DNA of 58,045 nucleotides, the filler included, from Jimgerdemannia flammicorona (lineage: Eukaryota), in NCBI GenBank assembly GCA_003990765.1. It is 3 parts of 3 records of this genome, joined end to end, with 100 filler letters (N's around TTAATTAATTAA, not from the genome) between each part and the next. Parts side by side here need not be neighbours in the genome. Positions count along the whole stretch, not along the records: positions 1 to 19,284 come from RBNJ01001984.1; 2 more parts are not named here. One strand, 5' to 3'. The notes below the pieces were generated by a model. The model saw only the letters and a list, made by a program, of their open reading frames with translations, was not told the DNA's origin and did not search any database. Below are positions 5,478 to 55,980 of the stretch, piece after piece (position 1 is the stretch's first letter; every line of letters starts with the position of its first letter). A program made the position numbers and the translations under genes.

Positions 5478-6738
5478 CTACAAAAATATAGCATGATCAG
5501 AAGATGGTGGAACAGCAATCCATACTTTAGATTTCCAGTGTATCGCGCCCTTTTCATCGGTATAACAAATGCCAGGAAAGCAGACAACTTGCTTTTCTGA
5601 CGAAGTAAATCTAATCTCAAATGATTTCCCATTGTTCCTGTTGTATGTAGATGAGATGGCCGATTTTCGGTCACACAAGATGAGCTTACCAGAGACTTCG
5701 ATCATATCGTCGACTAGTGCGTCAAATTGTTTTTGCGCCCCATCATGTTGATTGATCTTCAGGAAACTTTCTCGAAGATCTAAAAATGGTTTCTGCTTGG
5801 ATGCTTTTTCATGTATTTGCTCTCTGAGATCTTGTTCGAGCATCTTGTAATTTGACTGCAGTACACCTATAACGAACTGTATGTTGGTTGGAGATACCTT
5901 TACGTCGAACATGGATTCACGGATGGTTTCGATTCGGCTCTTGATGATATTCTGAGTCGCACCGAACACACCCGTCATATTAATGGACAATAGTTCGCCG
6001 TTCTTGGCATTATCCTCGAAGAGAAACAGGCTAAGCCATCGTTGTCTATGGTCATAGAAGATATCATACATATATATATATTTAAAATGCTGGAAATTAA
6101 ATAAAAAAGCAATGGGAAAAAAAGCTAGTAACGTACTTACCGAAGACTATCAAATTTTTTCAACACAACGCTAAGATTCCAGGCTTCGAAATCAGTTCCA
6201 ATAACAGTTACACGCAATCTGTCTCTGTCTTCCTTTAAGATATCGTTATCCTTCCGCAACTGGCTGGCCTCACTCCGCAATCTGCCGGCCTCACTCCGCC
6301 AATGCTGAACCTCCTTCTGCAACTGCTTAATATCCTTCAGAGCTTCGGAATAGTCATGCTAGTTCATAATGAAGTTACTTACAATAAGTACTTATCCCAC
6401 AAATTAGAAATTTCTGTCAATGTCAATTTTTAGAAGAACTCGTACTTTCGAAATTTATGTTTTTGTTAACCTACCTCTAGTCTCTCCCTACGTTCAGTTT
6501 CATCCCCATATCCTATGGCGACATTTTTCAGAAATTTTACAACCTCGTCCATTTTATCACGTGTTGACGCGGCAGTAATAGTATTGTCTTGAACTTCAAC
6601 TACTAGCTTTTGAGGCTCGCTAATGTTGCAAAGAATATTAAGATATCTGTAAGTAATGGAGTGACGATAAGCAACACAATGAATGAACTCCACTTACGCG
6701 ACTTGCGGAGAGCTTCTTTGATTAGATGAATGCTGCAT
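5478..6738 (-). CDS. Coiled-coil Hsp70-partner protein, copy 1 (323 aa; C-terminus Mieap/GIL1/GrpE-head-like)
   Basis: Exons 6738-6698, 6619-6475, 6358-6141 and 6045-5478 (972 nt, in frame, GT-AG introns with phases conserved in all three copies). Heptad segment HDYSEALKDIKQLQKEV...LKEDRDRLR; C-terminus VVCFPGI...WKSKVW. The gene model is well supported; the family assignment is inference. Confidence 0.85.
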
Positions 6739-7301: not shown

Positions 7302-9502
7302 ATGCCTCGCAAGACTAAAGCCAAGAACACCACCACAGTGAAAAACACCACTACAGTCAAGAGCACCACTGCAGTCAACGCCACCACTGGTGTTTTCCGC
7401 AATATACTCAAGCCGAAAACTTATGGCTTTATCTGTGCCATAGATTTTGGTACAAGTGGTACGGGGTTCTGTTATGCAGTCTCTAATAATGGCACAATAG
7501 ATGACAAACGAGACATTATCCCGAACCCTGACTGGCATGTATTGTTAATTTTGAAGTTGCGTTTAAGTTATCCGCTTTCAGATTCGCTAACTAATATTTC
7601 TTTCTTGTTAGGCCGGGTAACCAAGAGCGTGGCAAAACGAATACCTCCATCATCCTTGATAAGACAACCAATGCCTGTATCAAATTTGGCACGGAAGCCA
7701 AATATGCCGCCCGCGACTACGCTTTCAACGAAAGCGACAGATTCTTTGAGCTGTTCAAGATGCAGTTATATGAGCATATTCCAGGCACCCCTTTTATCGT
7801 TAAGGACGCGGCAAGCGATGGAATCGATGCTATGATTGTTTTCAGAGAATCATTACGCTTTATAAAAAAAGGTATTGCTTTATATATATATATAAACGAA
7901 AATCTACGACGTGTATGTAAACTGTCTGCTAATTTTATCGAAATTAGTATTTTTTGAACACCTCAGAAGGAAAAACGTTTCCTGCTCTGAGATGGACGTC
8001 TTCTGGGTGTTGACCATTCCTGCAATTTGGGACGACGCCGCCAAGTTACTAATGCGTAAAGCTGCCGTGGCTGCTGAACTGGAGAAAGAAGACGGTCAAC
8101 TGGTACTCGCATTGGAGCCGGAAGCTGCATCTCTCTGGTGCCTCGCAAGTGGAGGAATCTCTTTGAAAAAAAAAGATGTCTATATGGTCGTCGATTGCGG
8201 TGGCGGTACTGTGGATATCACGATCCATGAAGTAGAGCGAGCGGACGAGCGATGCCCACGGGTGAAAGAAGGTATGTATAGTGGTGTCTGTTTTGTATTC
8301 ATTATGTGATTTTTTTTGGCATGTCTAAATTTGAGGTGAATCTTTTAATTCACCAGTTGCGCCTGCCAGTGGTGGAGCCTGGGGATCAACCAGCATTGAT
8401 CGTTGTGTGTTCAAATTGTTTGAAGACGTTTTTGGACGCAACCGATACAATCAAATGATGAAAGATTCCCTTGGTCATATACAACTTCAGGATGACGTTG
8501 AGAGAGCCAAATGCTCGTTTAACGGCGAAATCAATCCTGTCATCCAACTTCCTGATTCACTCTTGAATTCGACGAAGAATGATTTGGACACACCAAACCA
8601 AGCTGTCAGCAATTACAACCGAATAAATCAGGCAAGGCTTCAGTTGAAAGGTAAGCTATTTCATAGTATGCATATGTATTGACCATTTACTTTTTTTCTT
8701 CTTCTATTTATGTTCTGACATTGTATATGCATTCTACAGGATCAAACCTTCTAATTCCAGCGGCGATATTCTCGGAAATCTTCAGTTCTGCGATACGCTC
8801 GATCTTAAATCACGTGAATGACCTCTTGGTGAAATATGTCAACGTCAAATACGTCGTGATGGTGGGAAACTTTACCAACTGCATTCCATTACAAAAGCAA
8901 ATGGAGACTCTTTTGGACACATTCAAAATCAAGTTAATTATCCCAGATCAACCGGGCGATGCAATTATGAAAGGTGCTGTAATCTATGGGTTAGATTCCT
9001 CTTCTGTTACCTCCCGACGTGCCAGGAAAACCTATGGTGTGAGTGTGTTTGAAAGTTTTAACGATATGAAGCACCCCATAGAGCGGCTTGTGATCAGAGA
9101 TGGAAAGAGGTCTTGCGCAGGTGTGTTTGACCCATTTGTAAAAAAGAATCAGATAATTCCTTCGGGCCATATTGTGGAGCGTATATACCAGAAGGGGGAT
9201 AATCAACAAACAGAGATGGTAATACGGATTTTAGTCTCCGACGAAGACGAATTTCCACAATTTTCCGATCACTACTCTGTAAAGGTTATCGGAATACATT
9301 CAATCAACATTCCAATGAAAGGAACCGGAAGGTAAGATTTTATTAATTTTTTTATCATTTATTTCGTTTGAGTGACCTGACTTTAATACAATCTCGTTCG
9401 TCTAGAATTACTACGGGAATGCTATTTGGCAACACAGAACTTCGTTGCAAAAGTGTAAATGAGCTGGGCGAGGAAGTGGAAACCGCTTTGGTTTTGACAT
9501 GA
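7302..9502 (+). CDS. Atypical Hsp70 family protein (HSPA12-like), copy 1, 599 aa
   Basis: Exons 7302-7534, 7612-7871, 7948-8271, 8357-8650, 8740-9331 and 9406-9502 (1800 nt, in frame). Motifs AIDFGTSGTG, FKMQL, WVLTIPAIW, LALEPEAAS, VVDCGGGTVD, SGGAWGSTSID, SRRARKTYG and FGNTEL. No EEVD tail or helical lid. Confidence 0.93.
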
Positions 9503-11622: not shown

Positions 11623-12770
11623 CTATTTTGCAAGACGAGGTCGAGTGGCAACCCATACTTTGGATTTCCAGTCAGCCCTACCATTTACATCGATTGAACG
11701 AATGCCAGGAAAGCAGATAACTTGTTTATCTGCCGAAGTGATCACAATCGTATACGCTGTCGTATCGTGCCGGTCAAAATCATGTGAAATAGTCAATTTT
11801 TGGTCACACAAGAAAAGCATACCGGAGATTTTGATCATAGTGTCGAATAGTGCGTCAAATTGATCTTGATTAGATATCTCCAGGAAACTGATTTTAAGAT
11901 CATCGTGAGCTTTCTCCTTGCGTGCTCTTTTACGTATTCGCAATCTGAGGTCCGATTCAACCGTCTTGTAATTTGACTGGAGTACACCTGTGATGAACTG
12001 TATGTTTGTTGGAGATTCCTCATAGTCGAACATGTGCTCACAGACCTCTTTGATTTGATCCTTGAGGAGCTTTTGAGTTTCTCTGAACACAGACTCCATA
12101 CTAGCCGTCAATAGTGAACCGTTCTTAGCACTATCACCGAAGAGATACAGGCTAAGCCATTGTTGTCTATGGTCATAGAAGATATGATGAATTTTTTTAA
12201 AAATAATAACTGGAAATTAAGTCAAAAAGAAACGGAAAAAATAGCCAGTAATTATACTTACCGAAGACTTTCAAATATTTTCAATACAGCACCAATACTC
12301 CAGGCTTCATAATCGGAACCAATAACAGTAGCACGTAATTTGTTCATTTCCTCCTTCAAGAGAGCATTTTTCCTCTTCAAATCTTCTATTTCTTCCTGAG
12401 CTTCTGAATATTGATGCTAGTTCATAATATAGTTACGATAAGTACTTATTCAGAACAACCCGTGCTTTCGAAATCTTTTTTTTATTTTATTTTTTTTGGT
12501 TAACCTACCTCTAATAGCTGCCTCCGTTCAGTTTCAACCCCATATCTATTGAAGATATCTATCAGATGATTCACAAAACCATCCCTTTCACCGCTTATCG
12601 ACGCGGCAGTGATAGCATCGTCTTGAACTTGCTCAGACACTGGCTTTTGAGACTCGCTAATGTAATAATAAAAGATATCCATAAGTAAAGGAGTGACAAT
12701 AAGCCGCATGATGAGTTGATTCAACTTACCCGACTTGCGAATAACTTCTTTGATCAGTTGAAGGCTGCAT
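11623..12770 (-). CDS. Coiled-coil Hsp70-partner protein, copy 2 (295 aa)
   Basis: Exons 12770-12730, 12656-12509, 12416-12262 and 12166-11623 (888 nt, in frame). Same intron phases as copy 1; SPTNIQF.TGVLQSNY and VICFPGI...WKSKVW conserved. Confidence 0.85.
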
Positions 12771-13325
12771 ATTTTCAATATATTTCGGTCCTCCGCGACA
12801 TACTTATATTTATGTGCCCAAATGGAAAAGCCCCGAGACATAATTCATTTCAGTTTTTATCGCTTATAGTACCAAGTCCTGTGAATTGATTATAAGGAAG
12901 AACTTTGTACTACTCGGCATCTGGTTCCTATGCGCATTTCAACTTTATTAATATATAAACACTTTGTGATCACATTATGCAATCCTTTTTGATAAACAAT
13001 GTAAGCATAACAATGATGTAAGCTGGTGGCTGACCATGGCAACGACCAAACAGAAGAGTACACAATTGTGTTCCAGTCTACATGGTAAGGTTTGCATAAA
13101 TGTATATTATGCATTGTGCCAATCTTTACCAGCAATAATCTCTCGCTCAATGAATTTAGTAGATAGTGACAATTGTTTGTGTTCCACGATCAAAAAATCC
13201 CAAGAGTGGGGTAAAATCCTCCGCATTCGCCCATGTAACAATAAATTGTCCATGCCTGGTTAGGACCATCACATCTTGGGTATAAGCTTAAAATCACAAG
13301 TCTCAGTTTCACATTTTTTGCGAAA
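12771..13325. promoter_or_regulatory. Bidirectional promoter region, unit 2
   Basis: 555 bp between divergent ATGs; homologous to 6739-7301. Confidence 0.6.
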
Positions 13326-13848
13326 ATGCCTCCTCACGAAACACACGAAGTCAAGAACACCACCTCTGGTGTTTTCCGTAATATACTCAAGCGAAAAACG
13401 TATAACTTCATCTGTGCCATAGATTTTGGCACAAGCGGTACAGGATTCTGTTATGCAGCCCCCAACGAAGGTGCAATAGATGCCAAGCGAGACATTATCC
13501 CCAACCCTGACTGGTACGTATTGTTATTTTTGAAACTGCATTTATGTTATTCAGATTTGATAACTAATATATCGGCCTTGTTAGGCCGGGTAACCAAGGG
13601 CGTGGCAAAACGAATACTTCCATTATCCTTAATAAGACAACCAATACCTATATCAAATTTGGCACGGAGGCCAAATATGCCGCCCGCGATTCTGCTTTCA
13701 ACGATAAAGACAGATTCTTTGAATTGTTCAAGATGCAGTTATATGAGCATATGCCAGACACGCCGTTTATCGTCAAGGACACAGCGAGCAAAGAAATAGA
13801 TGCTATAATCGTTTTCAAAGAGTCGCTACGCTTCATAAAAACAGGTAT

Positions 13849-13885
<37 letters not shown>

Positions 13886-15491
13886 TAATGGAAATCTACA
13901 CTGCGTTGATAATCTGTTGATTTGACTTGAAATTAGTATTTTTTGAACACCTCAGAAAGAGAAATGTTCCCTGCTCTGAGATGGATGTCTTCTGGGTGGT
14001 GACGATTCCTGCAATTTGGGACGACGCTGCCAAGTTGCTAATGCGTGAAGCTGCTGTTGCCGCTGAACTGGAAAAAGAAGAAGGTCAACTTATGTTCGCA
14101 TTGGAGCCAGAAGCTGCATCTCTCTGGTGCCTCGCAAGTGGAGGAATCTCTTTGAAAGAAAAAGATGTCTACATGGTCGTCGATTGCGGTGGCGGTACGG
14201 TGGATATCGCGATTCACGAAGTAGAACGAGCTGACGAGCGACACCCACGGGTGAAAGAGAGTACGTGTGACATTGTTCATTTTGTATAAATTACATGATA
14301 TTATGTCTGTCTAATTCTGAGATAAATCTTTTAATCCAACAGTTGCGCCTGCCAGTGGTGGAGCCTGGGGATCAACCAGCATTGATCGTTGCGTGTTCAA
14401 ATTGTTTGAAGAAGTTTTTGGTCGCAACCGATACGATAAAATGATGAAAGATCCCCTTGGTCATACGCAACTTCAAGATAACGTCGAGAGAGCCAAATGC
14501 TCGTTCAATGGCGAAATAAATCCTGTCATCCAGCTTCCTGATTCACTCTTGAATTCGACGAAGGATGATTCGGACACACCAAACCAAGCTATCAACAATT
14601 ACAACCGAATAAATCAGACGCGGCTTCAGTTAAAAGGTTAGGCTATTTCATAGCGTGCATTAACTGTTTTTTCTTCTCCTTTTTTCTTTTTTTTTAAGTT
14701 CTGACATTCTGTATGTATTTCACAGGCTCAACTCTTCTAATTCCAGCGGCGATATTCTCGGAATTCATTAGTTCTGCAATACGCTCGACCCTAAATCACG
14801 TGAATGACCTCTTGGTGAAATATAGCAACATCAAATACGTCGTGATGGTGGGAAACTTTGCCAACTGCGTCCCATTACAAAAGCAAATGGAGACTCTTTT
14901 GGACACATTCAAAATCAAGTTAATTATCCCAGACCAACCGGGCGATGCAATTATGAAAGGTGCTGTACTTTATGGGTTGGATTCCTCTTCTGTTACCTCC
15001 CGTCGTGCCAAAAAAACCTATGGTGTGAGAAAGATTACAGCTTTTATCGATGGGGAGCACCCCGTAGAGCGGCTTGTGATCAGGAGTGGACTGAGATTTT
15101 GCTCAGCTGTGTTTGATCCATTTGTACAAAAGAATGAGACAATTTGTTCAGACCACATCGTGGAGCGTAAATATAAGAGGGCGGAAAAGGAACAAAAAGA
15201 GATAATAATACAAATTCTAGCCTCCGACGAAGACGAATTTCCACAATTTGCCGACCACTACTCCGTAGAGGTTATCGGAAAACATACCGTCAATATTCCA
15301 ATGAATGGAACTGGAAGGTAAGATTTTATTTTCGGGGGGTTTTTTTTTTCGTTCGAGAAACCTGATCCTATTATAATCTCGTTCGATTGTCTAGTATTAC
15401 TACGGGAATGTTATTTGGTGACACAGAACTTCGTTGCAAAAGTGTAAATGATCTGGGCGAGGAAGTGGAAACCACTTTAGTGTGGACATGA
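13326..15491 (+). CDS. Atypical Hsp70 family protein (HSPA12-like), copy 2, 584 aa
   Basis: Exons 13326-13513, 13585-13844, 13937-14260, 14343-14636, 14726-15317 and 15395-15491 (1755 nt, in frame). Exons 2-6 are identical in length to copy 1 and carry the same motifs. Confidence 0.93.
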
Positions 15492-15517
15492 ATGTTTGCA
15501 ATAAGTTGTCGGCGCTG

Positions 15518-17081: not shown

Positions 17082-18263
17082 CTATGAATATGTAGCCCGA
17101 TCGGAGTGTGGTGGAATGGCAATCCATACTTTGGATTTCCAGTCAACCACACCATTTTCATCGGTTGAAGAAATGCCAGGAAAGCAGACAGTTAGCTTTT
17201 CTGACGAATTAATCACAATCTCGAACGTTTCCTTATCGTTTGGGTTGTATGCACGTGAGAAAACTAACTTTCGGTCACACAAGAAAAGCATACCAGAGAT
17301 TTTGATCATATCGCTGAATAGTCCGTCAAATTGTTTTTGCGCTACTTCACGTTGATTAGATTTCATTAGGAAACTAGCTGAAAATTTTAAGAACACTGGG
17401 TCTTGGTGTGCTATTTCACGCATTCGCTTTCTGAGGGTCTCTTCAAGTGCCGTGTAATTTGACTGCAGTACACCAGTGACGAACTGGAAGTTTGTTGGGG
17501 ATTCCTTGAAGTCAAATAAGTATTCACGGATTGTTTTCATGTGACTATCGAGAATATTCCGAGTCACGATGAACACAGATTCCATATTCCTGGTCAACAG
17601 TTCGCCGTCCTTGGCATCATCATCGAAGAGAAACAGGCTAAGCCATTGTTGTCTATGGTCATAGAAGATTTCATATAATTTTTTTTTAAAAAATCGCTGG
17701 AAATTAAATCAAAAAGCAAAATAGCTAGTAACGTACTTACCGAAGATTATCAAATTTTTTCAACACAAAACCAAGGTCCCAGGCTTGAAAATCACTACCA
17801 ATAATAGTGGCGCGTAATTTGTTCATTTCCGCCTTCAAGAGAGAATTATTATTCTTCAGCTGTTGGATTTCTTTCTGAGCTTCTGAATATTCATGCTAGC
17901 ATAATAAAGTTACTTACGATAAGTACTTATCTCATAAATTGGAACTTTTGTCAAAATCAATTTTCAGAATAACTCGTGCTTTCGATTTGTTAACCTACCT
18001 GTAGTAACCGAGTCCGTTCAGTTTCTCCCCCATATCTAGTGAAGACATTTTTCACATAACTTACAACACCATCCATTTCATTACGTATTGACGCGGTAGT
18101 AATAGTATTTTCTTGTTCAACCTCTGGCTGTGGAGACTCGCTAATGTTGCAATGAATATATAAGATATCCGTATGTAATAGCGTGACAATAAGCAGCACA
18201 ATGAATGTATTTCACTTACACAACTTTCGGGCGACTTCTTCGATCAGAAAAACTCTTCATCAT
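17082..18263 (-). CDS. Coiled-coil Hsp70-partner protein, copy 3 (302-303 aa)
   Basis: Exons 18263/18260-18220, 18140-17999, 17895-17741 and 17652-17082, in frame, with the same structure as copies 1 and 2. Confidence 0.85.
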
Positions 18264-18744: not shown

Positions 18745-19264
18745 ATGCCTCCTTACGAAAAACGTGAAAACACCACCACTGGTGTTTTCCGCAATATACT
18801 CGAGCGTAAAACTTATAGCTTTATCTGTGCCATAGATTTTGGCACGAGTGGTACGGGGTTCTGTTATGCAGTCCTTAAGAATGGCAAAATAGATGCCAAG
18901 CGAGATATTATCACGAACCCTGACTGGTATGTCTTTCTATTTTTGAAAACTTCGTTTAAGTTATTCGCTTTCAGATTTGCCAACTAATATTTCCGTCTTG
19001 TTAGGCCGGGTAACCAAGGGCGAGGCAAAACAAGTACCTCCATCATCCTCAATAAGACAACCAATGCCTATATCAAATTTGGCACGGAAGCCAAATATGC
19101 CGCCCGCGACTACGCTTTCAACCAAAGAGACAGATTCTTTGAGTTGTTCAAGATGCAGTTATATGAGCATATGACAGATACGCCGTTTATCGTCAAGGAC
19201 ACGGCAAACAATGGAATCGATGCTTTGATCGTTTTCAGAGAGTCATTACGCTTCATAAAAAAAG
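18745..19264 (+). CDS. Atypical Hsp70 (HSPA12-like), copy 3, 5' part only (cut by assembly gap)
   Basis: Exons 18745-18926 and 19005-19264 (AIDFGTSGTG, FKMQL). Intron 2 runs into poly-T and Ns. Confidence 0.88.
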
Positions 19265-19284
19265 GTATGGTTTTTTTTTTTTTT

Positions 19285-19384
19285 NNNNNNNNNNNNNNNN
19301 NNNNNNNNNNNNNNNNNNNNNNNNNNNNTTAATTAATTAANNNNNNNNNNNNNNNNNNNNNNNNNNNNNNNNNNNNNNNNNNNN
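19285..19384. other. Assembly spacer
   Basis: N44-TTAATTAATTAA-N44, an artificial six-frame-stop linker. Confidence 0.98.
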
Positions 19385-28700: not shown

Positions 28701-31514
28701 CCAACCACCTCCATTTCCCAACCCTCCTATAACCCCCTATCCTCTAACAAGGAAGAATTTAGCTGCTAATGTCCAGGCCCATCCTCATTTCCCCCAAACC
28801 TCCCCCCTCCAAGCAGCCCCCAGTGATCAGACCACAGACACCAAACACTTCCAGCACCAACCAGACATCTGCTCCCCAACACTCCACTGTCAAAACCCAG
28901 TCAATGCTAGAGCCCAGCCCTGCTGCCCAGTGGGTGTACACCTGTCAATCAGCCCAAAAATGTCTTCCTGAGTCCACTAAAGAACTCAACCTCTCTGTCT
29001 CCAACCAGTCACCCAACCTACCACTTTCACCCCACATGCCTCTCCCTCTATCTGTTCTATCCATCTCCTTATCCCAGACCATATTGAAGTCACCCCCCAT
29101 ATAGTCCAGCCCAACTTCTCCCAATACACCAGCCTCTTTCAATCTGTGAATCCAATCCACCCTCTCCCCTCTCTCAGCTGGGCAGTAGCAAGACCCAACT
29201 GTCAGCGAGCCCCATCCAGGCCTCTTCCACACTCCCCACACCACCCAAGACCCCCAATGTCCAATGTCCTCAATGTCCCCTATCCCTTTCCGAACAAGAA
29301 TACACACTCTCCCCCTCCATACTGCTGCACCCCCCCATTCCTTAGTCCAATCCTGTAAGTTCACATCTGCCTCATAACAAACATCCTGTAACAAGAAGAG
29401 GTCTGCATCCAGTCCCTTAAGCCATCCAAATATATACTTCCTTCTAGCCGCCCTCCATAACCCATTAATGTTCAATGAGAATATCCTAGTTGTACTGTTC
29501 ATATTGAATAAATGTTGCAATAGAGACCCCATCCTAGAATTCCATGCTCATCTCATCCTCAGCCAGATCCAAGCACTGTTCAGCTTCTAAGTCACCCTCC
29601 GCATTAGCCTGAGCATCCAGTGCCTCCAAGATTTCCTGACATTCCACCCCATCCACTACCTCTATATCTGACTGATAATCTAAGCAGACTGTGTGCTACT
29701 TCTCCAGTCCCTTCCTCAAGTTCTACAAGAATAGTGCCCTGTCACTTACAATCCTCCTAAGTTCCTCCTCCCTCTAATCATTGACTTGATATTCAACCGA
29801 CTCCAGGAGAATAGCCAGGATCTTGTTTCTCATCTTCCTTGACACCTCCTCCCCCCATAGGATCTCCTCCCAATGCCTTTCTTCCATCACCCTGAAATCC
29901 TCACCCCCCAGCTCTTCAGCCACCACCCCTTCCAGGGTCTTCCACATCTACTTCTCCTCATCCACCACCTCCACCACACTCTGAGTAATTTGTCCCCCAT
30001 CTACCTTGGGGTCCACTAGCATGCTCCTCTGCACTGACTCATCCCACTCCTCATCTGGTACATCTAGCAGCTCCTCCTCCCCCTCAGCTCCATCTGGGAT
30101 ACTATACTGGGGGTGCACACCTTCGCTCATATCCACATCTGCCTCCATATTGCCTACCCTCTCCACCTCCACTCCCAGCTGAGCCCCACTCTGGGTCCTT
30201 TCACCCCCCTCAGCCCAGGCACTCTCCTGCAATCCTGCACCCCTCTCCCCTGAACTTCCACTGGCCCTACCCCTACCCAACCTCACCAGCAGCTCCTTCT
30301 GGATTTTCCTCCTCTGCAACTTCTCCCAGGCCCCCTTCTCCATTCGGACCCTCTTCCCATCCACCTCCCCCACCACCATCCTGGCCTCAAACTCCTTCCA
30401 TGCCAATCTCCTCCTCACGACCGCCCCTTCTAGATCCTCTAGAGCCTCCAACAGGTCTTCCTCCTCCTCCTGGGTCCCCTTCACCCTCATGACCTTACAC
30501 TCCACCAGTCCCCACCTCAGTATCGCTGGCCAGTCCCTCGACTTCCCCATACTCTCCCTTCTGGCCAGTCTCACCCTGACATCAACGTCACCAGTCCAAA
30601 GCTCCGTACCCTCCCAGACCTTGAACCCAACATCCACAATCTCTCCATACTCTCTGATCGCCTCCACAACCAACTCCCTGGTCCTCTCCTTCAACACCAT
30701 AGGGAGATCCAGCACTGTCAACTGTACCACTCAGGGGTCCCAGTGCATACACCTGGTCATAGGGACGACAACTTCGCCAACTGTCACCCCCTTCTCCAAG
30801 GCTACCAACAAGATGTCTTCCTTCTCGAACCCCACCTTGACCCCTTCCTTCTCCTTCAAAAACTTCACTGATGCCACTCCCTTTGCCTCCTGCACCACCA
30901 GCTCCAAAATCATCCTTGCCGTCACTGCCAAGCCCTGGAAACACATTGTGACTGTGAATTCTGACCTCGACTTCTTGAGTAACAGGGCCGACACCATGTC
31001 TGTAACCCCATCTGCCAGATCCCGGGGCCTCATGCCCACTCCCCATCCTGAATTATCAACTGTCATCACATCTGGATTTTTTGCCAGATTCCCAGTTACA
31101 GCCCCATCACCAGTCACATCTCCAGCCCCCCCTCAGTAACTCCCCTGAGTGCACCTCCCAGACCCCCAGCAGTAGCTGTTGATGCCTTCCCCAGGTCCAG
31201 CCAACCATCTAGACCTGAGGCCATCTTCCCCATTCTGACCTTGTCAGCAAAGGTCAACCTCTCCCCTCCTCTCTGCCTCAGACTGCCCCTCCCTCCACCA
31301 CCAGGACTATGGCTAGCCATCACGGCCCCTGGCATCTCCAAACCATCTCCCCTCCTTCCCACCTGCTGCCAGCCAAAGGCACCATCTCCCCCCTAGTCAG
31401 TATGCTTACCAGTTTGATCATTGCCATCCATGTCAATAGTCGTTGGATACCAAAAATATAGTAAAAAGTGTTGTCTGAGTCTTGTATCACCTGAATATTA
31501 CTGGTGAAAGATGA
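25759..31514 (-). mobile_element. Full-length degenerate Tx1/L1-group LINE (ORF1 about 31360-29534; ORF2 APE-RT-zf-RVT 29502-25992; poly(A))
   Basis: APE SLNINGL, LFLLQD and GGDFN; RT WKNWRPIMLLDMD, PQGDPL and AFADD; C-terminal C..C...HWLSEC; AATAAA and poly(A) at 25760-25775. The 5' end catctttcaccagtaatattcag is shared with 41683 and 47146. Confidence 0.92.
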
Positions 31515-38666: not shown

Positions 38667-38766
38667 NNNNNNNNNNNNNNNNNNNNNNNNNNNNNNNNNN
38701 NNNNNNNNNNTTAATTAATTAANNNNNNNNNNNNNNNNNNNNNNNNNNNNNNNNNNNNNNNNNNNN
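38667..38766. other. Assembly spacer
   Basis: N44-TTAATTAATTAA-N44. Confidence 0.98.
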
Positions 38767-39009: not shown

Positions 39010-41682
39010 TACTATAAGAAGTTTAAATTCTACTCTATTACTGAAGGTACCAGAACCCACTCTAAGCCCAATAACAAGAAGAGCAACAGTAAGCCAGTTG
39101 GAAGACCAAAGAAGACCCTAGCTGTCACTATTTAAAGCAAAACCCAATCTGAGAAGATTGATCAAGACATAGAGTTAGATGAAGCTGCCTGCTAAATTAT
39201 TGAAGACACCACTCTAGTCTTAGAAGAAAGTGAAAGTAAGAAAGAATAAAAGTTACATAAGACCAAGATCTACTAGTATGATATCTACAAAGACCTTAAG
39301 AAATAGAAGGTCAATGCTACTTTTGGACAACTAGCTGAAGTCTCTGCCTTTAGATAGTAGTTGAGAGTAAGACTTGTAATTACCATCAAGAATCAAAAGG
39401 ACAAGATTATAGAAGCTCACAATATATAAGAAGAATCTGAGAACTTAGGTGAAGAATCTAAAGACTAGTGCAAGATCTCAGCCTATATTCTATGTCAGAT
39501 TGAAGATTGTATCTTTGATACTATCATTGATATTGGTACTAGAGAATATCTCATGAGTAAGAAGACAATTAACTACCTAGGCTGGGACATTGAAGAGTCT
39601 ACCAAAATAGTCTATATTATAGCAGATAATATACAAGCTACCCTACTAGACAAGATCTGAGAAGTCTCTATCAAGATTAGAGGAACTATCATCTCAGTAG
39701 ATATAATTGATATAAGTATCACCAACTATGATATTCTCATTGGTAACTAATGGTTTTACAAGGCTAAGACTATCATTAAGCTCAATATCCAGAAGATACA
39801 GATCAACTATAGAGGAAAAAAGGGTATGAGTCTCTATCAATATCCACAAAGGAGTATTATCAGATATGGAGAAAGGAGATGAAGAGGATACAGAAGTCTT
39901 CATATACTAAGTATATAAGAATAAGAACAAGACACCTAAGCTCATAGATGAGCAGTGATATAATAAGATTATTGATAGCTATGTTCCTCAAGGAAGATGC
40001 TCCCATAGTACTAAGATATACTACTCTGAACACTTGAATGACTACTGGTCCTATATCAGTGAAGTTAGAAAAATCTGTCAATAAAGGTATAAGTAAGAGG
40101 CCACTGAAGTAAAAAGAAAAGCCAAAGAAGATGACTAGTCCTCAGAACTTTAAGCTGATAGTAATGATGAGAAGGAATAAGAACTAGACATCACTCTTAA
40201 GATCAAGAAGTTTTATCTTAAAGCTAAGATTCTAGAATATAAGACTGAAGGAGCTATAGGAATAAACCTTGTCAGTATCCAAGATGCTATCCTCAAACCA
40301 CAAACTACTACTCTACTTGATACTGAAATTGGAGTAAAGTTGCCAAAGAACTATGCTAGAATTATCAAGACCAGAAGCAGTCTGGTCAAAAGTGAAATCT
40401 CAGTTGAGGGAGGAGTTATTGATTCTGATTATATTAGTGAGATCTTCCTTATAATTAGGAATTACAACTCTACCATCTCATTTGAAGTCAAGAAGCATGA
40501 TAGAATTGGCCAGATGTTGATCTATGATATCAAGAAGTCTAAGATCACTGAAGCCATTGAACTCATCAAGATTAAGAGAGAAGAACAAGACTTTGGATCT
40601 ACTAGAAGAGAAGTCTATACTACTATTAAGATTACTGAACTCAAGCACAAGAAAGACAAGAACCAAAACAAGTATATATATACTATTAGAGAAAATTTTC
40701 CCCTAAAAGAACAACTTCTTAAGATCCTATATCAGAATGAAAGAGTACTTGTTACAGACTTCAGAGACATCTACAATTAAGAATATAAATACTATCATAA
40801 AGTTGACACTGGTGATACCAAGCCTATCTATCAGAAAGCTAGACCTATACCATCTGCTTATAGAGAATGGCTGCAAGCAGAACTCAAAGAAATAGAAGAA
40901 GCCAGTATTATCAAGCAAGCTATTAGTCCCTGGGCTTCATCTATTGTCCTTGCCTCAAAGAAAAATAGCAAGCCTGGAGAGTTTGCCTCAAGACTCTGTA
41001 TTGATTACAAGAAGCTCAATGTAATCAACAAGAAGAATAGAAAACTCTTGCCAAATATTCAAGAAATCCTTATCACCCTTAGAAATAAAGTCAAATACTA
41101 CACTACCTTAGATCTATTCTCAGGCTTCCATCAGATTGGTCTCACTTAAGATACTAGTGAAAAATCAGTCTTTATTACACCTGATGCTATCTATATCTAT
41201 CTGTGAATGTCATTTGGAATATGCAATATATCAACAAGTTTTCAGCAAATGATGAATAGAGTCTTCAGTAATGAAATTAGAAAATAGCTCTTTATCTATA
41301 TTGATGATATGATCATCTTCAGCAATACTATATGGAAATATATTAATCATATATAGCTAGCTCTTAAGAAGCTCAAGAAGTATGGCCTCTACATCAAGCT
41401 CAAGAAGTACAAGTTTGTAGCTTACAAAATTGCCTATCTAGGGCATATTATTAACCAGACTAGAATTCATATAGATACTATAAAGATTGAGGCTATTGCA
41501 GCTTACCCAAGACCCAGAACAACTATAGAAGTTCATATCTTCCTTGGACTGGCCTCCTACTATAGAAGATTTATCAAAGGATACTTCAATATTGCAGCAC
41601 CTTCTATAAGCTATTGAAGTAGGAGACCAAATTTAAATAGACTAAGGAACATCAAGAAACCTTCAATGAACTCAAGACCAGC
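39010..41682 (+). mobile_element. Ty3/Gypsy family B, older copy, part 1 (gag end-protease-dUTPase-RT)
   Basis: Collinear with the reverse complement of 52285-54960; dUTPase TRSSLVKS..VEGGVIDSDY..HDRIGQ..DFGST at about 40220-40605; RT SPWASSIVL, RLCIDYKKLN and YIDD. Confidence 0.88.
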
Positions 41683-53200: not shown

Positions 53201-55980
53201 TCCCTAAAGTCTATAGCAAGTACTCTTTCATTCTAATACAGAATCTTGAGAAGTTGTTCCTCCAGGGGAAAGTTTTCTTCAATGGTATATATATGCTTGT
53301 TCTGGTCCTTGTCTTTCTTGTGCTCAAGTTCAGTAATCTTGATGGTAGCATAGGCTCCTCTTCCAGTAGATCCAAAGCCTTGTTCTCCTCTCTTAGTCTT
53401 GATGAGTTCAATGGCTTCTATGATCTTTGGCTTCTTGACTTCATGGATCAGCATCTGGCCAATCCTGTCATGCTTCTTGACTTTGAAGGAGGTGGTGTGG
53501 TTGTGATTTCTGACTATGAGGAAGATCTCGCCAGTGTAATTAGGGTCAATTACTTCTCCTTCAACTGAGATTTCACTTTTGGCCAGACTGCTCCTGGTCT
53601 TGATAATTCTGGCATAGTTTTCTGGCAGCTTGACTCCAATTCCAGTGCCAAGTAGGGTGGTGGTCTGTGGTTCAAGGATAGCATCTTAAATGCTAGCAAG
53701 GTCCATTTCTATGGCTCCTTCAGTCTTGTATTCTGGGATCTTGGCTTCAGGGTGAAACTTCTTGACCTTGAGAGTGATGTCTGATTCTTATTCCTCCTCA
53801 TCGTTACTGTCAGCTTGAAGCTCTGGGGGCTGGTCATCTTCTTTGGCTTTCCTTTTTGCTTCAGTGGCTTCTTACTCATATTTCTGTTGGTGGATTTTCC
53901 TGACTTCACTGATACAGGATCAGCAGTCATTCAGGTGTTCTGAGCAGTACATTCTAGTACCATGGGGGCATCTTCCTTGAGGGACATAGTCATCAATGAT
54001 CTTGTTGTACTACTGCTCATCTGTGAGCTTGGGTGTCTTGTTCTTGTTCTTGTTCACCAAGTGCATGAAGACCTCTGTGTTCTCTTCATCTCCTTTCTCT
54101 ATGTCTGATAGGACTCCTTTGTGGACATTGATAGAGACTCATACCTTTCTTCCTCTATAGTTGATCTGCATTTTCTGGGCATTGAGGTCAATGATGGCCT
54201 TGGCCTTGTGAAGCCATTGGTTACAAATAAGAATGTCATAGTTGGTGGCACTTGTAACAATCACATCTACTGGGATAGTAGCTCCTCCTATCTTGATGGG
54301 GACTTCTCAGATTTTGCCAAGGGGGGTAGCTTGTACATATACTATCTGCTATGACATAAACTATCTTGGTGGACTCTTCAATGTCCCAACCTAGGCAGTC
54401 AATTGCCTTCTTGCTCATAAGGCATCCTCCAGCACCAGTATCAATGATAGCATCAAAGATACAATCTTCAATCTGACATAGGATATAGGCTGATGTCTTG
54501 TGCTGGTCTTTGGATTCTTCACCTGAGTTTTTGGATTCTTTCTGTACATTGTGAGCTTCTACAATCTTATACTCTTGATTCTTGGTGGTAGTTGTAAGTT
54601 CTACTCTCAACTGCTGTCTAAAGGCAGGGACTTCAGCTAGCTGTCCAAAGGTAGCATTGACCTTCTGTTTCTTGAGATCCTTGTAGATATCATACTGGTG
54701 GATCTTGGTCTTGCACAGCTTCTGTTTCTTCTTGCTTTCACTTTCTCCTGAGACTGGGGTAGTGTCTTCAATAATTTGGTGAGCAGCTTCATCTAACTCC
54801 ATGTCTTGATCAATCTTCTCAAGTTGGGTCTTGCTTTGAATAGTGATAGCTGGGGTCTTCTTTGGTCTTTCAACTGACTTGCTGTTGCTCTTCTTGTCAT
54901 AGGACTTGGACCAGGTTCTGGTACCTTCAGTAGCAGGGTAGAATTCGAGCTCCTCATAGTATTCTTTATCATCAGTGTCACTGATCTCCTCAATGACTAC
55001 TGCATTGGTTTGTTCTCTAGTTCTGCTAGCATTGCTTAGTTGGGCTTTGCATCTTGTTTCAGTCATACAACTCTTTGCATAGTGGCCTTCTTCTCCACAT
55101 CTGAAGCATGTGATATTGTGTTCTTCTATAGTAGCTGCAAATCTCTGCACTGGTCTCCTGTTAGTACTTCAGACCTCTCTAACAACATCACCAAGGTGTG
55201 CAGTCATCTCAGCAAACTGCTTGGCTAGTTCCTCTACTGGGTCAGCTTTGGCTGTCTTGTGGATAGGTGGGGTTGGTTGTCTGTTTATGACTGTAGTAGG
55301 TAAGATACTAGTTGGCTTTGATGACTCCAACTTGATACCAGTTATTTTCTACATTGAGTATTTGGCAGGGTATCTGGCAGTTCAATATCTCTGTGCAAAG
55401 ACCACTTTCTGATCAAGGGTCAGTGCAGCTGGGGTAGACTGGATTGCTAGGGCAATTTCAGAGTGAACTCCTTTGAGGAAAGTTGAATCCACTATTTATT
55501 CCTTGAGGTGGTCATCATAGCTAGTCAAGACAATCTGGTGGCAAATTCAGGTATAGAATGAGTTGGGATCTTCACTAAGTCCCTGGCAGATAGTATTGAG
55601 TTGATCTTTGAGAGCTTGCTTGATCTCTTTGGTATAATATGTTGTTCTGAGGAAGACCTTCATGTTGGCAAGTTTGGCTGCACCAGCATCAGCAATGGTG
55701 GCTGTATTGAACTTATCTCTGGTAGGTCCTCTAAGGCTGACTGGTAGAAGGGCCAATTGAGCATCCACACCAAGGGCTCATATTGTTCAAAGTCTTCAAT
55801 GAAGGTCAGGATTGACTCTTCAGTAGTATATCTATAGAATATAGGGGGATATATTTTCATCTTGTCTTGAATTCTTGCAGGGGTGACTCTTGTAGTTAGG
55901 GTAGTTGTTGTAGGGGTTGTTCATTTTTCAGCTTGAAAGTGAGGAATTCATCTTGAATCACCAGCCAATGGGCACCAAGT

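What the first reader, a model, noticed from the sequence alone, without database searches (positions are those of the whole stretch)
9042..9331. Hsp70 paralogues diverge mainly in the C-terminal substrate-binding region
Hand comparison of copy 1 and copy 2: exon 3 differs at 11/108 aa and the first 101 aa of exon 5 at 10 aa. The 97 aa after the TYGV linker differ at about 37 positions without indels, clustered in SVFESFNDMK vs RKITAFIDGE and QKGDNQQTEMV vs KRAEKEQKEII (counterpart 15028-15317), including charge changes. These segments map by position to the SBD-beta strands and loops. Inference: a conserved ATPase engine with a rapidly evolving specificity surface.
Basis: partly seen in the sequence, partly recalled or inferred. 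Interest (0 to 1): 0.72.

Follow-up and report, generated by a model that had tools for sequence, protein, structure and literature searches.

The report
Fast-evolving peptide-cleft loops in duplicated fungal Hsp70s
Three neighbouring copies of an unusual lidless Hsp70-type gene in a root-associated fungus keep their ATP-using half nearly unchanged but differ strongly in the two loops that, in ordinary Hsp70s, grip the client protein; this is a real but family-typical pattern, and adaptive change is not proven.

Summary
Copy 1 (7302-9502) and copy 2 (13326-15491) are intact six-exon genes in a ~6-kb tandem unit. Copy 3 (from 18745) is cut by an assembly gap. The 97 codons at 9042-9331 differ at 38 of 97 residues without indels, against 11/108 (exon 3) and 10/101 (start of exon 5).

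Synonymous divergence is not raised in the segment (dS 0.28, gene-wide 0.30). Non-synonymous divergence is about 4-fold higher (dN/dS 0.82, against 0.21 in the ATPase domain).

The proteins are HSPA12-like, lidless Hsp70s of an Endogonales fungus. A confident model and fold searches show that the C-terminus is an Hsp70 SBD-beta sandwich. A profile alignment to DnaK places cluster 1 at the end of beta1 plus loop L1,2, and cluster 2 at loop L3,4 plus beta4. These elements flank the peptide pocket.

All three paralogues changed at the same sites. The rates do not exceed a neutral simulation, so positive selection is unproven. Faster SBD evolution is typical of the family (29 of 31 close pairs).

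Aside: each unit also carries a fast-evolving orphan coiled-coil gene, head-to-head with the Hsp70 gene, that is predicted to bind the ATPase domain. This scan had noted similar Hsp70-partner pairs on other DNA of this genome.

The parts
7302..9502 (+). Copy 1, HSPA12-like lidless Hsp70 gene. Exons 7302-7534, 7612-7871, 7948-8271, 8357-8650, 8740-9331, 9406-9502 (599 aa). Intron 1 has a GC donor.
   Evidence: the exon joins match the public proteins P0003/P0004
9042..9331 (+). The finding: 97 codons that encode SBD-beta from the second half of strand beta1 to loop L5,6 (copy 1 aa 472-568). They differ from copy 2 at 38/97 aa, with dS 0.276, dN 0.226 and dN/dS 0.82.
9042..9071 (+). Cluster 1 (SVFESFNDMK): end of beta1 and start of loop L1,2. 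It aligns with DnaK E402-M404 and the start of the family-specific insert of 23 residues. There are 12 non-synonymous and 0 synonymous differences. Six of the 10 sites differ in all three paralogues.
9189..9236 (+). Cluster 2 (QKGDNQQTEMVIRILV): loop L3,4 and strand beta4. It aligns with DnaK S427-Q442, including arch residue A429. The conserved Gln (DnaK Q433 position) is kept. Seven of the 16 sites differ in all three paralogues.
9406..9502 (+). Exon 6 of copy 1: strands beta6-beta8 of the SBD and the stop codon. No helical lid follows. It differs from copy 2 at 4/31 aa.
13326..15491 (+). Copy 2. Exons 13326-13513, 13585-13844, 13937-14260, 14343-14636, 14726-15317, 15395-15491 (584 aa). The counterpart of the segment is 15028-15317. 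The gene is nearly identical to public protein P0004.
18745..19284 (+). Copy 3, exons 1-2 only (18745-18926, 19005-19264), cut by the N run at 19285. Its N-terminus is identical to public protein P0003, which was used as the full-length stand-in.
5481..6738 (-). Unit 1 partner gene, head-to-head with copy 1: an orphan coiled-coil protein (orthologue of P0123).
11638..12661 (-). Unit 2 partner gene, head-to-head with copy 2.
17088..18145 (-). Unit 3 partner gene, head-to-head with copy 3 (orthologue of P0124). It is predicted to bind the ATPase domain of P0003.

Best explanation
The window holds a young tandem array of three HSPA12-like genes. These encode an atypical Hsp70 with a complete actin-like ATPase domain followed by an SBD-beta sandwich, without the helical lid. 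The finding covers the SBD-beta. Within it a conserved framework (the Tyr-Gly of beta1, the Phe/His/Cys/Phe of the family-specific L1,2 insert, the L3,4 Gln and the inward-facing beta4 residues) alternates with two stretches that evolve at about the neutral rate in all three copies: the end of beta1 plus loop L1,2, and loop L3,4 plus the outward face of beta4. In canonical Hsp70s these elements flank the peptide pocket and carry the arch residues. The most likely reading is that purifying selection is strong on the ATPase engine and on the fold of the SBD but weak or absent on the cleft-lining loops. The paralogues therefore now carry different client-binding surfaces and probably differ in client preference. 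Shown here: the gene structures, the rates, the fold and the positional mapping. Inferred: that the domain still binds clients under nucleotide control, and that the differences alter specificity. Whether the loops drift or are driven by selection is not resolved.
For: Rates. The segment has dS 0.276, dN 0.226 and dN/dS 0.82, against dS 0.30, dN 0.062 and dN/dS 0.21 for the ATPase domain. N:S differences are 45:14 against 66:76, p = 1e-4. Introns have JC distances of 0.21-0.51, so neutral divergence is even along the gene.

Family. Named hits are 'heat shock 70 kDa protein 12A/B-like' at 28-32% identity, E 1e-53 to 1e-68. Pfam HSP70 scores 29-31 bits against a cut-off of 20.6. ATPase motifs are intact in all three copies.

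Fold. The full-length model has pLDDT 91.5 and pTM 0.91, and its best matches are two-domain DnaK structures (E 4e-27). The C-terminal model has pLDDT 94.3. Its listed Foldseek hits are predominantly Hsp70 SBDs or SBD-containing Hsp70 chains, with top E 1.8e-5 and TMq 0.60-0.67. VIA-align gives Z 12.5, rmsd 1.6 A over 107 residues to the mortalin SBD; the best non-Hsp70 chain has Z 5.4.

Mapping. The profile aligns TYGV to DnaK SLGI 398-401 and the L3,4 stretch to DnaK 427-442. The pocket lies between L1,2 and L3,4, with arch residues Met404/Ala429 (PMC4110032, passages read).

All lineages changed. Pairwise differences in the segment are 38/38/33 of 97, with unique changes of 13/8/8. Sites differing in all three copies number 17/97, against 9/416 in the ATPase domain (p = 1e-7).

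Generality. The SBD diverges faster than the NBD in 29 of 31 independent close pairs of the family. The two loop stretches diverge faster than the rest of the SBD in 25 of 31.

Function in a relative. The HSPA12A 'substrate binding domain' binds a client tail, more with ADP and less with ATP (PMC6345817, passages read).
Against: Copy 1 needs a GC donor at intron 1. The structural model is of P0003, the orthologue of copy 3, not of copies 1 or 2. I had no coordinates, so solvent exposure and the shape of the cleft with its 23-residue L1,2 insert were not examined. Some numbers lean towards positive selection rather than mere relaxation. Codons 472-498 have 20 non-synonymous differences over 63 sites against 2 synonymous over 18 (dN/dS about 3.4), although Fisher p = 0.13 and the window was chosen after looking. 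A run of five consecutive sites that differ in all three copies has P = 0.007-0.045 under neutral simulation. No client of any HSPA12-like protein of fungi is known.
Confidence: 0.55

Rival explanations
1. Diversifying positive selection: the cleft loops are driven to change because new copies are selected for new client specificities. This is the strong form of the first reader's idea.
For: Cluster 1 has 12 non-synonymous and 0 synonymous differences in 10 codons. Its pN of 12/25 exceeds intron divergence of 110/387 (p = 0.044). Codons 472-498 have dN/dS of about 3.4. All three lineages hit the same sites: 17/97 sites differ in all three copies. A run of five such sites has P = 0.007-0.045 under neutrality. 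Silent divergence in 8894-9131 is low (9/80) while protein divergence is high.
Against: Totals do not exceed neutrality. P(38 or more differences) is 0.95-1.0 and P(17 or more three-state sites) is 0.36-0.93 for branch lengths of 0.15-0.20. The best 10-codon window has P = 0.06-0.34. dN/dS of the segment does not differ from 1 (p = 0.59), and the 472-498 window gives p = 0.13. The windows were picked after looking. Only two coding sequences and one extra protein were available, so no site model could be run. The same loops are the more variable part of the SBD across the whole family, as expected for weakly constrained loops.
Confidence: 0.3
2. Recombination or gene-conversion mosaic: the ATPase half is kept alike by conversion between copies, or the segment was imported from a more distant paralogue.
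For: The longest identical tract over all sites is 62 nt (8886-8947), just upstream of the segment (permutation P = 0.008). Synonymous divergence in the first part of exon 5 (11/70) is below that of the flanking introns (46/161, p = 0.046).
Against: dS in the segment (0.276) is not raised against the gene (0.30) or its flanks (p = 0.40). On silent sites alone the longest identical run is not significant (P = 0.098). Introns 4 and 5 on either side of exon 5 are as diverged as the others (JC 0.395 and 0.32). The three copies are equidistant both in the ATPase domain (52/54/53 of 416) and in the segment (38/38/33 of 97), so the two parts share the same tree shape.
Confidence: 0.05
3. Decay: one or more copies are pseudogenes or are losing the SBD, and the divergence is the start of degeneration.
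For: Copy 1 has a GC donor at intron 1 and an expanded low-complexity N-terminus. A fourth public paralogue, P0005, looks frameshifted or mis-annotated. dN/dS of the segment is near 1.
Against: Both full copies have open frames, no indel in 128 C-terminal codons, and AG acceptors at all five introns. Changes are spread over all three lineages rather than one. Framework residues of the SBD that are nearly invariant in the family (Y451, G452, C478, F482, G537, and the L3,4 Gln) are kept in all copies. The rest of the SBD has dN/dS of 0.3-0.4.
Confidence: 0.07

Closest known systems
Animal HSPA12A / HSPA12B and the HSPA12-like proteins of bivalves, amphioxus, fish and birds
   Same: They are the best named sequence relatives (28-32% identity over more than 90% of the length). 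Length is the same (about 570-600 aa). They share a divergent ATPase domain, lack the helical lid (PMC13580251, passage read), and have a C-terminal beta domain with the same conserved framework (alignment A1). In bivalves the family expands by tandem duplication (PMC11268181, passages read).
   Different: This is a fungal (Endogonales) lineage, and orthology to the animal genes was not tested. Here the fast sites are mapped to particular SBD loops, whereas the bivalve paper (passages read) gives whole-gene Ka/Ks only. Each copy is paired with an orphan coiled-coil gene.
Canonical Hsp70s (DnaK, HSPA1A, BiP, mortalin) and the E. coli paralogues DnaK / HscA / HscC
   Same: Two-domain layout of ATPase domain plus SBD-beta. 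Beta1, L3,4-beta4 and beta5-beta8 align by profile. The E. coli paralogues differ in the arch residues (Met/Ala, Met/Phe, Ser/Ala; PMC4110032, passage read), which is the same kind of paralogue difference at the same place.
   Different: No SBD-alpha lid and no EEVD tail. The linker is polar/basic (SVTSRR aligned to DnaK VLLLD). There is a 23-residue insert in L1,2. Sequence identity to DnaK is only about 17%.
DnaK-GrpE (Hsp70 with its nucleotide-exchange factor), for the co-duplicated neighbour gene only
   Same: The neighbour combines a coiled coil, a helical region and a small beta tail. It is predicted to sit on the ATPase domain.
   Different: No sequence match to GrpE or any other family: 0 of 8 family members match in Pfam, and no PDB hit has E below 0.1. 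Its fold was not predicted on its own. The family is an orphan, with 8 hits among 1.84 billion representatives.

Membership tests
Hsp70 superfamily (Pfam PF00012) | Actin-like ATPase domain with phosphate-1, phosphate-2 and adenosine motifs | tested here: met
   Pfam HSP70 scores 29.0 and 31.1 bits (cut-off 20.6) for P0003 and P0004. The family profile against DnaK chains gives E 9e-23. Foldseek gives E 4e-27. The motifs AIDFGTSGTG, LEPEAAS, VVDCGGGTVD and VMVGNF are present in copies 1, 2 and 3.
Hsp70 superfamily (Pfam PF00012) | SBD-beta sandwich after the ATPase domain | tested here: met
   C-terminal model with pLDDT 94.3. Foldseek hits are predominantly Hsp70 SBDs or SBD-containing Hsp70 chains. 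VIA-align gives Z 12.5 and rmsd 1.6 A over 107 residues to 3n8e_A.
Hsp70 superfamily (Pfam PF00012) | Helical lid (SBD-alpha) and C-terminal EEVD-type tail of canonical cytosolic members | tested here: not met
   The proteins end two residues after strand beta8, and the model has no helix after residue 441. This matches the statement that HspA12A/B lack the lid (PMC13580251, passage read).
Hsp70 superfamily (Pfam PF00012) | Hydrophobic interdomain linker (DnaK VLLLD) | tested here: not met
   The profile alignment puts 'vitsR' (here SVTSRR) opposite DnaK VLLLD. R445 is nearly invariant in the family. In the model the stretch forms a strand (442-446), and the domain arrangement is closest to the docked ATP-state DnaK (rmsd 5.5-5.7 A, against 15-25 A for undocked states).
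HSPA12-like subfamily | Closest named relatives are HSPA12A/B-like proteins, alignable end to end | tested here: met
   305 proteins with E <= 1e-10. Many of the listed hits that carry a source name beyond 'hypothetical protein' are 'heat shock 70 kDa protein 12A/B(-like)', with 93-97% query coverage. Others carry generic names such as 'chaperone protein' or 'molecular chaperone DnaK'.
HSPA12-like subfamily | Family-specific framework of the C-terminal domain (Y-G of beta1, insert in L1,2 with conserved F/H/C/F, conserved Gln in L3,4) | tested here: met
   Nearly invariant Y451, G452, C478, F482 and G537. Low column entropy at F459, H464 and Q509. All are kept in the three copies.
HSPA12-like subfamily | Orthology with animal HSPA12A or HSPA12B | not tested
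   No tree was built, and identity is only about 30%.
Hsp70 chaperone function | Nucleotide-regulated binding of client peptides in the SBD cleft | not testable with these tools
   Only indirect evidence: an ADP/ATP-dependent client pull-down was reported for human HSPA12A (PMC6345817, passages read).
GrpE family (for the neighbour gene) | Sequence match to GrpE (Pfam PF01025) or to solved GrpE chains | tested here: inconclusive
   No GrpE match for 0 of 8 members at E <= 1. None appears among 5 PDB hits at E <= 10.

The most novel reading that the evidence does not exclude
Each ~6-kb unit is a co-duplicating two-gene module. It pairs a lidless HSPA12-like ATPase whose peptide-cleft loops diversify with a fast-evolving orphan coiled-coil protein that clamps the ATPase domain like a private exchange factor. 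On this reading the array is a birth-and-death repertoire of client-specific chaperone modules, a recognition system rather than a housekeeping chaperone. It would also give the functionally unknown HSPA12 class a testable cofactor and a testable specificity determinant.
Probability: 0.18. Interest if true: 0.72.

Novelty: new member of a known kind. Interest (0 to 1): 0.42.

Why it matters
A 2026 review calls the function of HSPA12-type Hsp70s unknown (PMC13580251, passage read), although animals, and bivalves most of all, keep many copies. Here three young copies allow a clean comparison. The ATPase domain and the SBD framework are held fixed, while the stretches equivalent to the DnaK pocket-flanking loops are free to change. 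This points to where client choice would be encoded in a lidless Hsp70. It also gives a simple experiment: swap two short loops between copies and compare binding. The predicted ATPase-binding partner encoded beside each copy adds a candidate cofactor. The general pattern of a conserved NBD and a changing SBD is already in print, so the gain is in the detail and the test system, not in a new principle.

Tried and rejected
1. Whole genome: none is held for this window. Paralogues outside the window could only be seen as public proteins.

There is therefore no evidence on expression, splicing or strain variants.

3. In-frame intron: the public model P0004 removes 19 codons inside cluster 2 as a 57-nt GT..AG intron, and both window copies have GT..AG there. 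I rejected this reading. The stretch is L3,4 plus beta4 of a confidently modelled sandwich, it contains the family-conserved Gln, and P0003 keeps it.

4. Compensated frameshift as the source of the clusters: rejected by codon-by-codon reading of the alignment. The differences are base substitutions in register.

5. Copy-1-only decay: rejected, because changes are shared among the three lineages.

6. Gene conversion or mosaic: see the rivals.

7. Partner contact with the variable SBD loops: in the predicted complex the confident contacts lie in the ATPase domain, and the SBD loops are not among the named residues. By the tool's own note this is no evidence that they do not touch. Paralogue differences are not enriched at the predicted interface (10/38 against 65/378, p = 0.18).

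8. GrpE or MIEAP likeness of the partner: an Atlas lead to MIEAP (score 0.91) and the earlier notes' GrpE idea found no support by Pfam or by PDB profile.

9. The Atlas search on the SBD gave no named family.

10. Exon-wise Pfam and PDB sequence searches of the segment alone gave only chance-level hits.

11. Literature: a search joining HSPA12 with Jimgerdemannia, Endogonales, Mucoromycota, Basidiobolus or chytrid listed 10 of 1,381 papers, and none of the 10 contains 'HSPA12'. This is weak evidence that the fungal genes are undescribed.

I used Nei-Gojobori counts, Fisher tests, permutation of identical tracts and a neutral codon simulation instead.
Full report
WHAT IS THERE

The window is eukaryotic DNA (42% G+C). 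It contains a ~6-kb unit repeated three times in tandem. Region 7200-9600 matches 13233-15496 at 82% identity, and the first 500 bases of a third copy at 18769-19274 match at 89%. Short N runs at 19285-19384 then break the assembly.

From the genomic alignment of the two full copies I derived six-exon gene models.
- Copy 1: 7302-7534, 7612-7871, 7948-8271, 8357-8650, 8740-9331, 9406-9502 (599 aa).
- Copy 2: 13326-13513, 13585-13844, 13937-14260, 14343-14636, 14726-15317, 15395-15491 (584 aa).
- All acceptors are AG. All donors are GT except intron 1 of copy 1, which is GC.

The exon joins agree with two public proteins of Jimgerdemannia flammicorona (Endogonales, Mucoromycota). P0004 is nearly identical to copy 2. 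P0003 has the same N-terminus as the truncated copy 3, so I used P0003 as the full-length form of copy 3.

THE OBSERVATION

It holds. Exon 3 differs at 11/108 residues. The first 101 residues of exon 5 differ at 10. The 97 residues from 9042 to the end of exon 5 differ at 38, with no indel. The counterpart coordinates 15028-15317 are right.

Nei-Gojobori estimates:

| Region | dS | dN | dN/dS |
|---|---|---|---|
| Segment (9042-9331) | 0.276 | 0.226 | 0.82 |
| ATPase domain (aa 30-471) | 0.30 | 0.062 | 0.21 |

The excess is significant.
- Non-synonymous:synonymous differences are 45:14 in the segment against 66:76 elsewhere (p = 1e-4).
- dN of the segment against its flanks gives p = 1.4e-7.
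- dS against the flanks gives p = 0.40.

The five introns have JC distances of 0.21, 0.51, 0.37, 0.395 and 0.32. Neutral divergence is therefore about 0.3-0.4 all along the gene.

WHAT THE PROTEIN IS

Exon by exon the Pfam signal is weak. The full-length public relatives pass the HSP70 threshold, but only over profile positions about 135-285.

A search with P0003 found 305 relatives at E <= 1e-10. Many of the listed hits that carry a source name beyond 'hypothetical protein' are 'heat shock 70 kDa protein 12A/B(-like)' of bivalves, amphioxus, fish and birds. There are also relatives in Basidiobolus, chytrids and cyanobacteria. The family-invariant ATPase residues are present in all three copies.

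An AlphaFold2 model of P0003 with 91 aligned relatives is confident (pLDDT 91.5, pTM 0.91). Everything after residue 441 is beta strand. Its best structural matches are two-domain DnaK and BiP chains (E 4e-27). The domain arrangement is closest to the docked, ATP-type state: rmsd 5.5-5.7 A to 4b9q, 7ko2 and 5nro, against 15-25 A for undocked states.

The C-terminal 144 residues were modelled alone (pLDDT 94.3).
- Among the listed Foldseek hits, Hsp70 substrate-binding domains or SBD-containing Hsp70 chains predominate, with top E 1.8e-5.
- An aligner that does not depend on Foldseek gives Z 12.5 and rmsd 1.6 A over 107 residues to the mortalin SBD. The best unrelated chain reaches Z 5.4.

The protein ends two residues after the last strand, so there is no helical lid. 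A 2026 review says the same of HspA12A/B (PMC13580251, passage read).

WHERE THE VARIABLE CLUSTERS SIT

A profile of the family aligned to DnaK gives the positional map.
- TYGV lies opposite DnaK S398-I401 (strand beta1).
- After the positions of E402-M404 the family has an insert of 23 residues in loop L1,2.
- The stretch from P0003 residue 503 to 518 lies opposite DnaK S427-Q442 (loop L3,4 and strand beta4). The conserved Gln lies on DnaK Q433.

Cluster 1 (9042-9071) is therefore the end of beta1 and the start of L1,2. Cluster 2 (9189-9236) is L3,4 plus beta4.

In HSP70 and DnaK the peptide pocket lies between loops L1,2 and L3,4, and the arch over it is formed by Met404 and Ala429 (PMC4110032, passages read). 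TYGV itself is a strand of the SBD, not the linker.

WHO CHANGED, AND HOW FAST

The three paralogues are equidistant. They differ at 52/54/53 of 416 residues in the ATPase domain and at 38/38/33 of 97 in the segment. Unique changes in the segment number 13, 8 and 8. Sites where all three differ number 17 of 97, against 9 of 416 in the ATPase domain (p = 1e-7). The divergence is not the decay of one copy.

Framework residues stay fixed in all copies: Y451, G452, F459, H464, C478, F482, Q509 and the inward positions of beta4.

Within the segment:

| Codons (copy 1 numbering) | dN/dS |
|---|---|
| 472-498 | about 3.4 (20 non-synonymous over 63 sites, 2 synonymous over 18) |
| 520-534 | about 1.1 |
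| 499-519 | about 0.4 |
| 535-568 | about 0.3 |

These local values do not prove selection.
- The 472-498 contrast has p = 0.13.
- dN/dS of the segment does not differ from 1 (p = 0.59).
- In a simulation where all 97 codons evolve neutrally on a star tree, the observed totals are at or below expectation.
- In the same simulation the best 10-codon window is not unusual (P = 0.06-0.34).
- Only the run of five consecutive three-state sites is marginal (P = 0.007-0.045).

IS IT SPECIAL?

Not in kind. I compared 31 independent close pairs from the family alignment, with the Jimgerdemannia pair left out.
- The SBD is more diverged than the ATPase domain in 29 of the 31 pairs (median ratio 1.35).
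- The two loop stretches are more diverged than the rest of the SBD in 25 of the 31 (median ratio 1.44).

The window's pair is at the strong end. The SBD differs at 0.33 against 0.12 for the ATPase domain. By my count from the table, the loop stretches differ at 19 of 26 positions. The review cited above also says that Hsp70 derivatives keep the NBD while the SBD changes most. An oyster study reports 89 HSPa12 genes, mostly tandem, with whole-gene Ka/Ks only (PMC11268181, passages read).

RIVALS

- Mosaic or conversion origin is disfavoured. dS is not raised in the segment, the flanking introns are as diverged as the others, and the tree shape is the same in both parts. The longest identical tract is significant only when constrained sites are included: 62 nt, P = 0.008 on all sites, against P = 0.098 on silent sites.
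- The 57-nt in-frame 'intron' that the public model P0004 removes inside cluster 2 is an annotation artefact in my view. It would delete L3,4 and beta4.
- Decay is unlikely, given open frames, no indels and a conserved framework.

HOW IT MOST LIKELY WORKS

It is a lidless Hsp70 whose ATPase domain controls a small SBD-beta. Human HSPA12A shows ADP-favoured, ATP-disfavoured binding of a client tail through its C-terminal domain (PMC6345817, passages read). The copies differ in the residues that line and flank the cleft, so they probably prefer different clients. This last step is inference.

SURROUNDINGS

Each unit also carries a minus-strand gene, head-to-head with the Hsp70 gene (5481-6738, 11638-12661, 17088-18145).
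- It encodes a coiled-coil protein with no family in Pfam.
- It has only 8 relatives among 1.84 billion representatives.
- Its large exon has dN/dS of 0.65-0.83 between units.

Earlier notes of this scan on other DNA of the same genome described HSPA12-type genes paired with a coiled-coil, possibly GrpE-like, partner. I took that as a lead and folded P0003 with P0124, the orthologue of the unit 3 partner.
- The score was 0.76, and the best of 3 controls scored 0.00.
- The mark was reached by 51 of 78 solved complexes and 2 of 108 mismatched pairs in the tool's calibration. On eukaryotes the figures were 39 of 65 and 2 of 126.
- The runs agree in at least 50% of contacts, and the partner's pLDDT is at least 68.
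- My alignments were not used.
- Of neighbours picked blind, 7 of 44 passed.

The model supports binding but does not show it. The confident contacts lie in the ATPase domain (residues 25, 43-68, 156-160, 305-319, 351-358, 422-426). Paralogue differences are not enriched there (10/38 against 65/378, p = 0.18). No GrpE likeness is detectable by sequence.

The rest of the window (19-58 kb) looks transposon-rich.

VERDICT

The evolutionary reading is plausible, family-typical and not shown to be adaptive.

Noticed in passing
5481-6738 (-), 11638-12661 (-), 17088-18145 (-): Each tandem unit carries an orphan coiled-coil gene head-to-head with the Hsp70 gene. The family has 8 relatives among 1.84 billion representatives, and dN/dS is 0.65-0.83 between units. 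It is predicted to bind the Hsp70 ATPase domain: score 0.76, best of 3 controls 0.00; the mark was reached by 51 of 78 solved complexes and 2 of 108 mismatched pairs; runs agree in at least 50% of contacts; partner pLDDT at least 68. No GrpE or other family match was found by sequence.
   Followed up: partly
7534/7535 (copy 1 intron 1 donor): Copy 1 has a GC donor (GCATGT) where copies 2 and 3 have GT (GTACGT, GTATGT). The gene is otherwise intact, and splicing was not checked.
   Followed up: no
7311-7390 (copy 1 exon 1): Copy 1 has a 15-residue Thr/Lys/Asn-rich low-complexity expansion at the N-terminus that is absent from copies 2 and 3. The model of P0003 has its first 11 residues at pLDDT below 50.
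   Followed up: no
15166-15222 (copy 2); 9180-9236 (copy 1): The public protein P0004 lacks 19 residues here, consistent with an annotated 57-nt in-frame GT..AG intron. The stretch encodes L3,4 and beta4 of the SBD and is kept in P0003, so this is probably an annotation artefact.
   Followed up: yes
19285-19384 and 38667-38766: Paired 44-base N runs mark scaffold gaps. The first cuts copy 3 after exon 2, so the array may be longer than it appears.
   Followed up: no
19385-58045: A repeat-rich region with inverted and direct repeats of 0.7-2.9 kb at 63-91% identity. It contains ORFs with an endonuclease/exonuclease/phosphatase domain (28945-29547), dUTPase (40181-40780) and a CCHC zinc knuckle (54236-55168), which looks like retrotransposon remains.
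   Followed up: partly
8886-8947: A 62-nt tract identical between copies 1 and 2, just upstream of the hypervariable segment. It is the longest in the gene (P = 0.008 on all sites, not significant on silent sites). It could be a short conversion tract or reflect strong constraint.
   Followed up: partly
public protein P0005 (not in the window): A fourth Jimgerdemannia paralogue (424 aa) goes out of register twice relative to the others. It is either frameshifted or mis-annotated.
   Followed up: no
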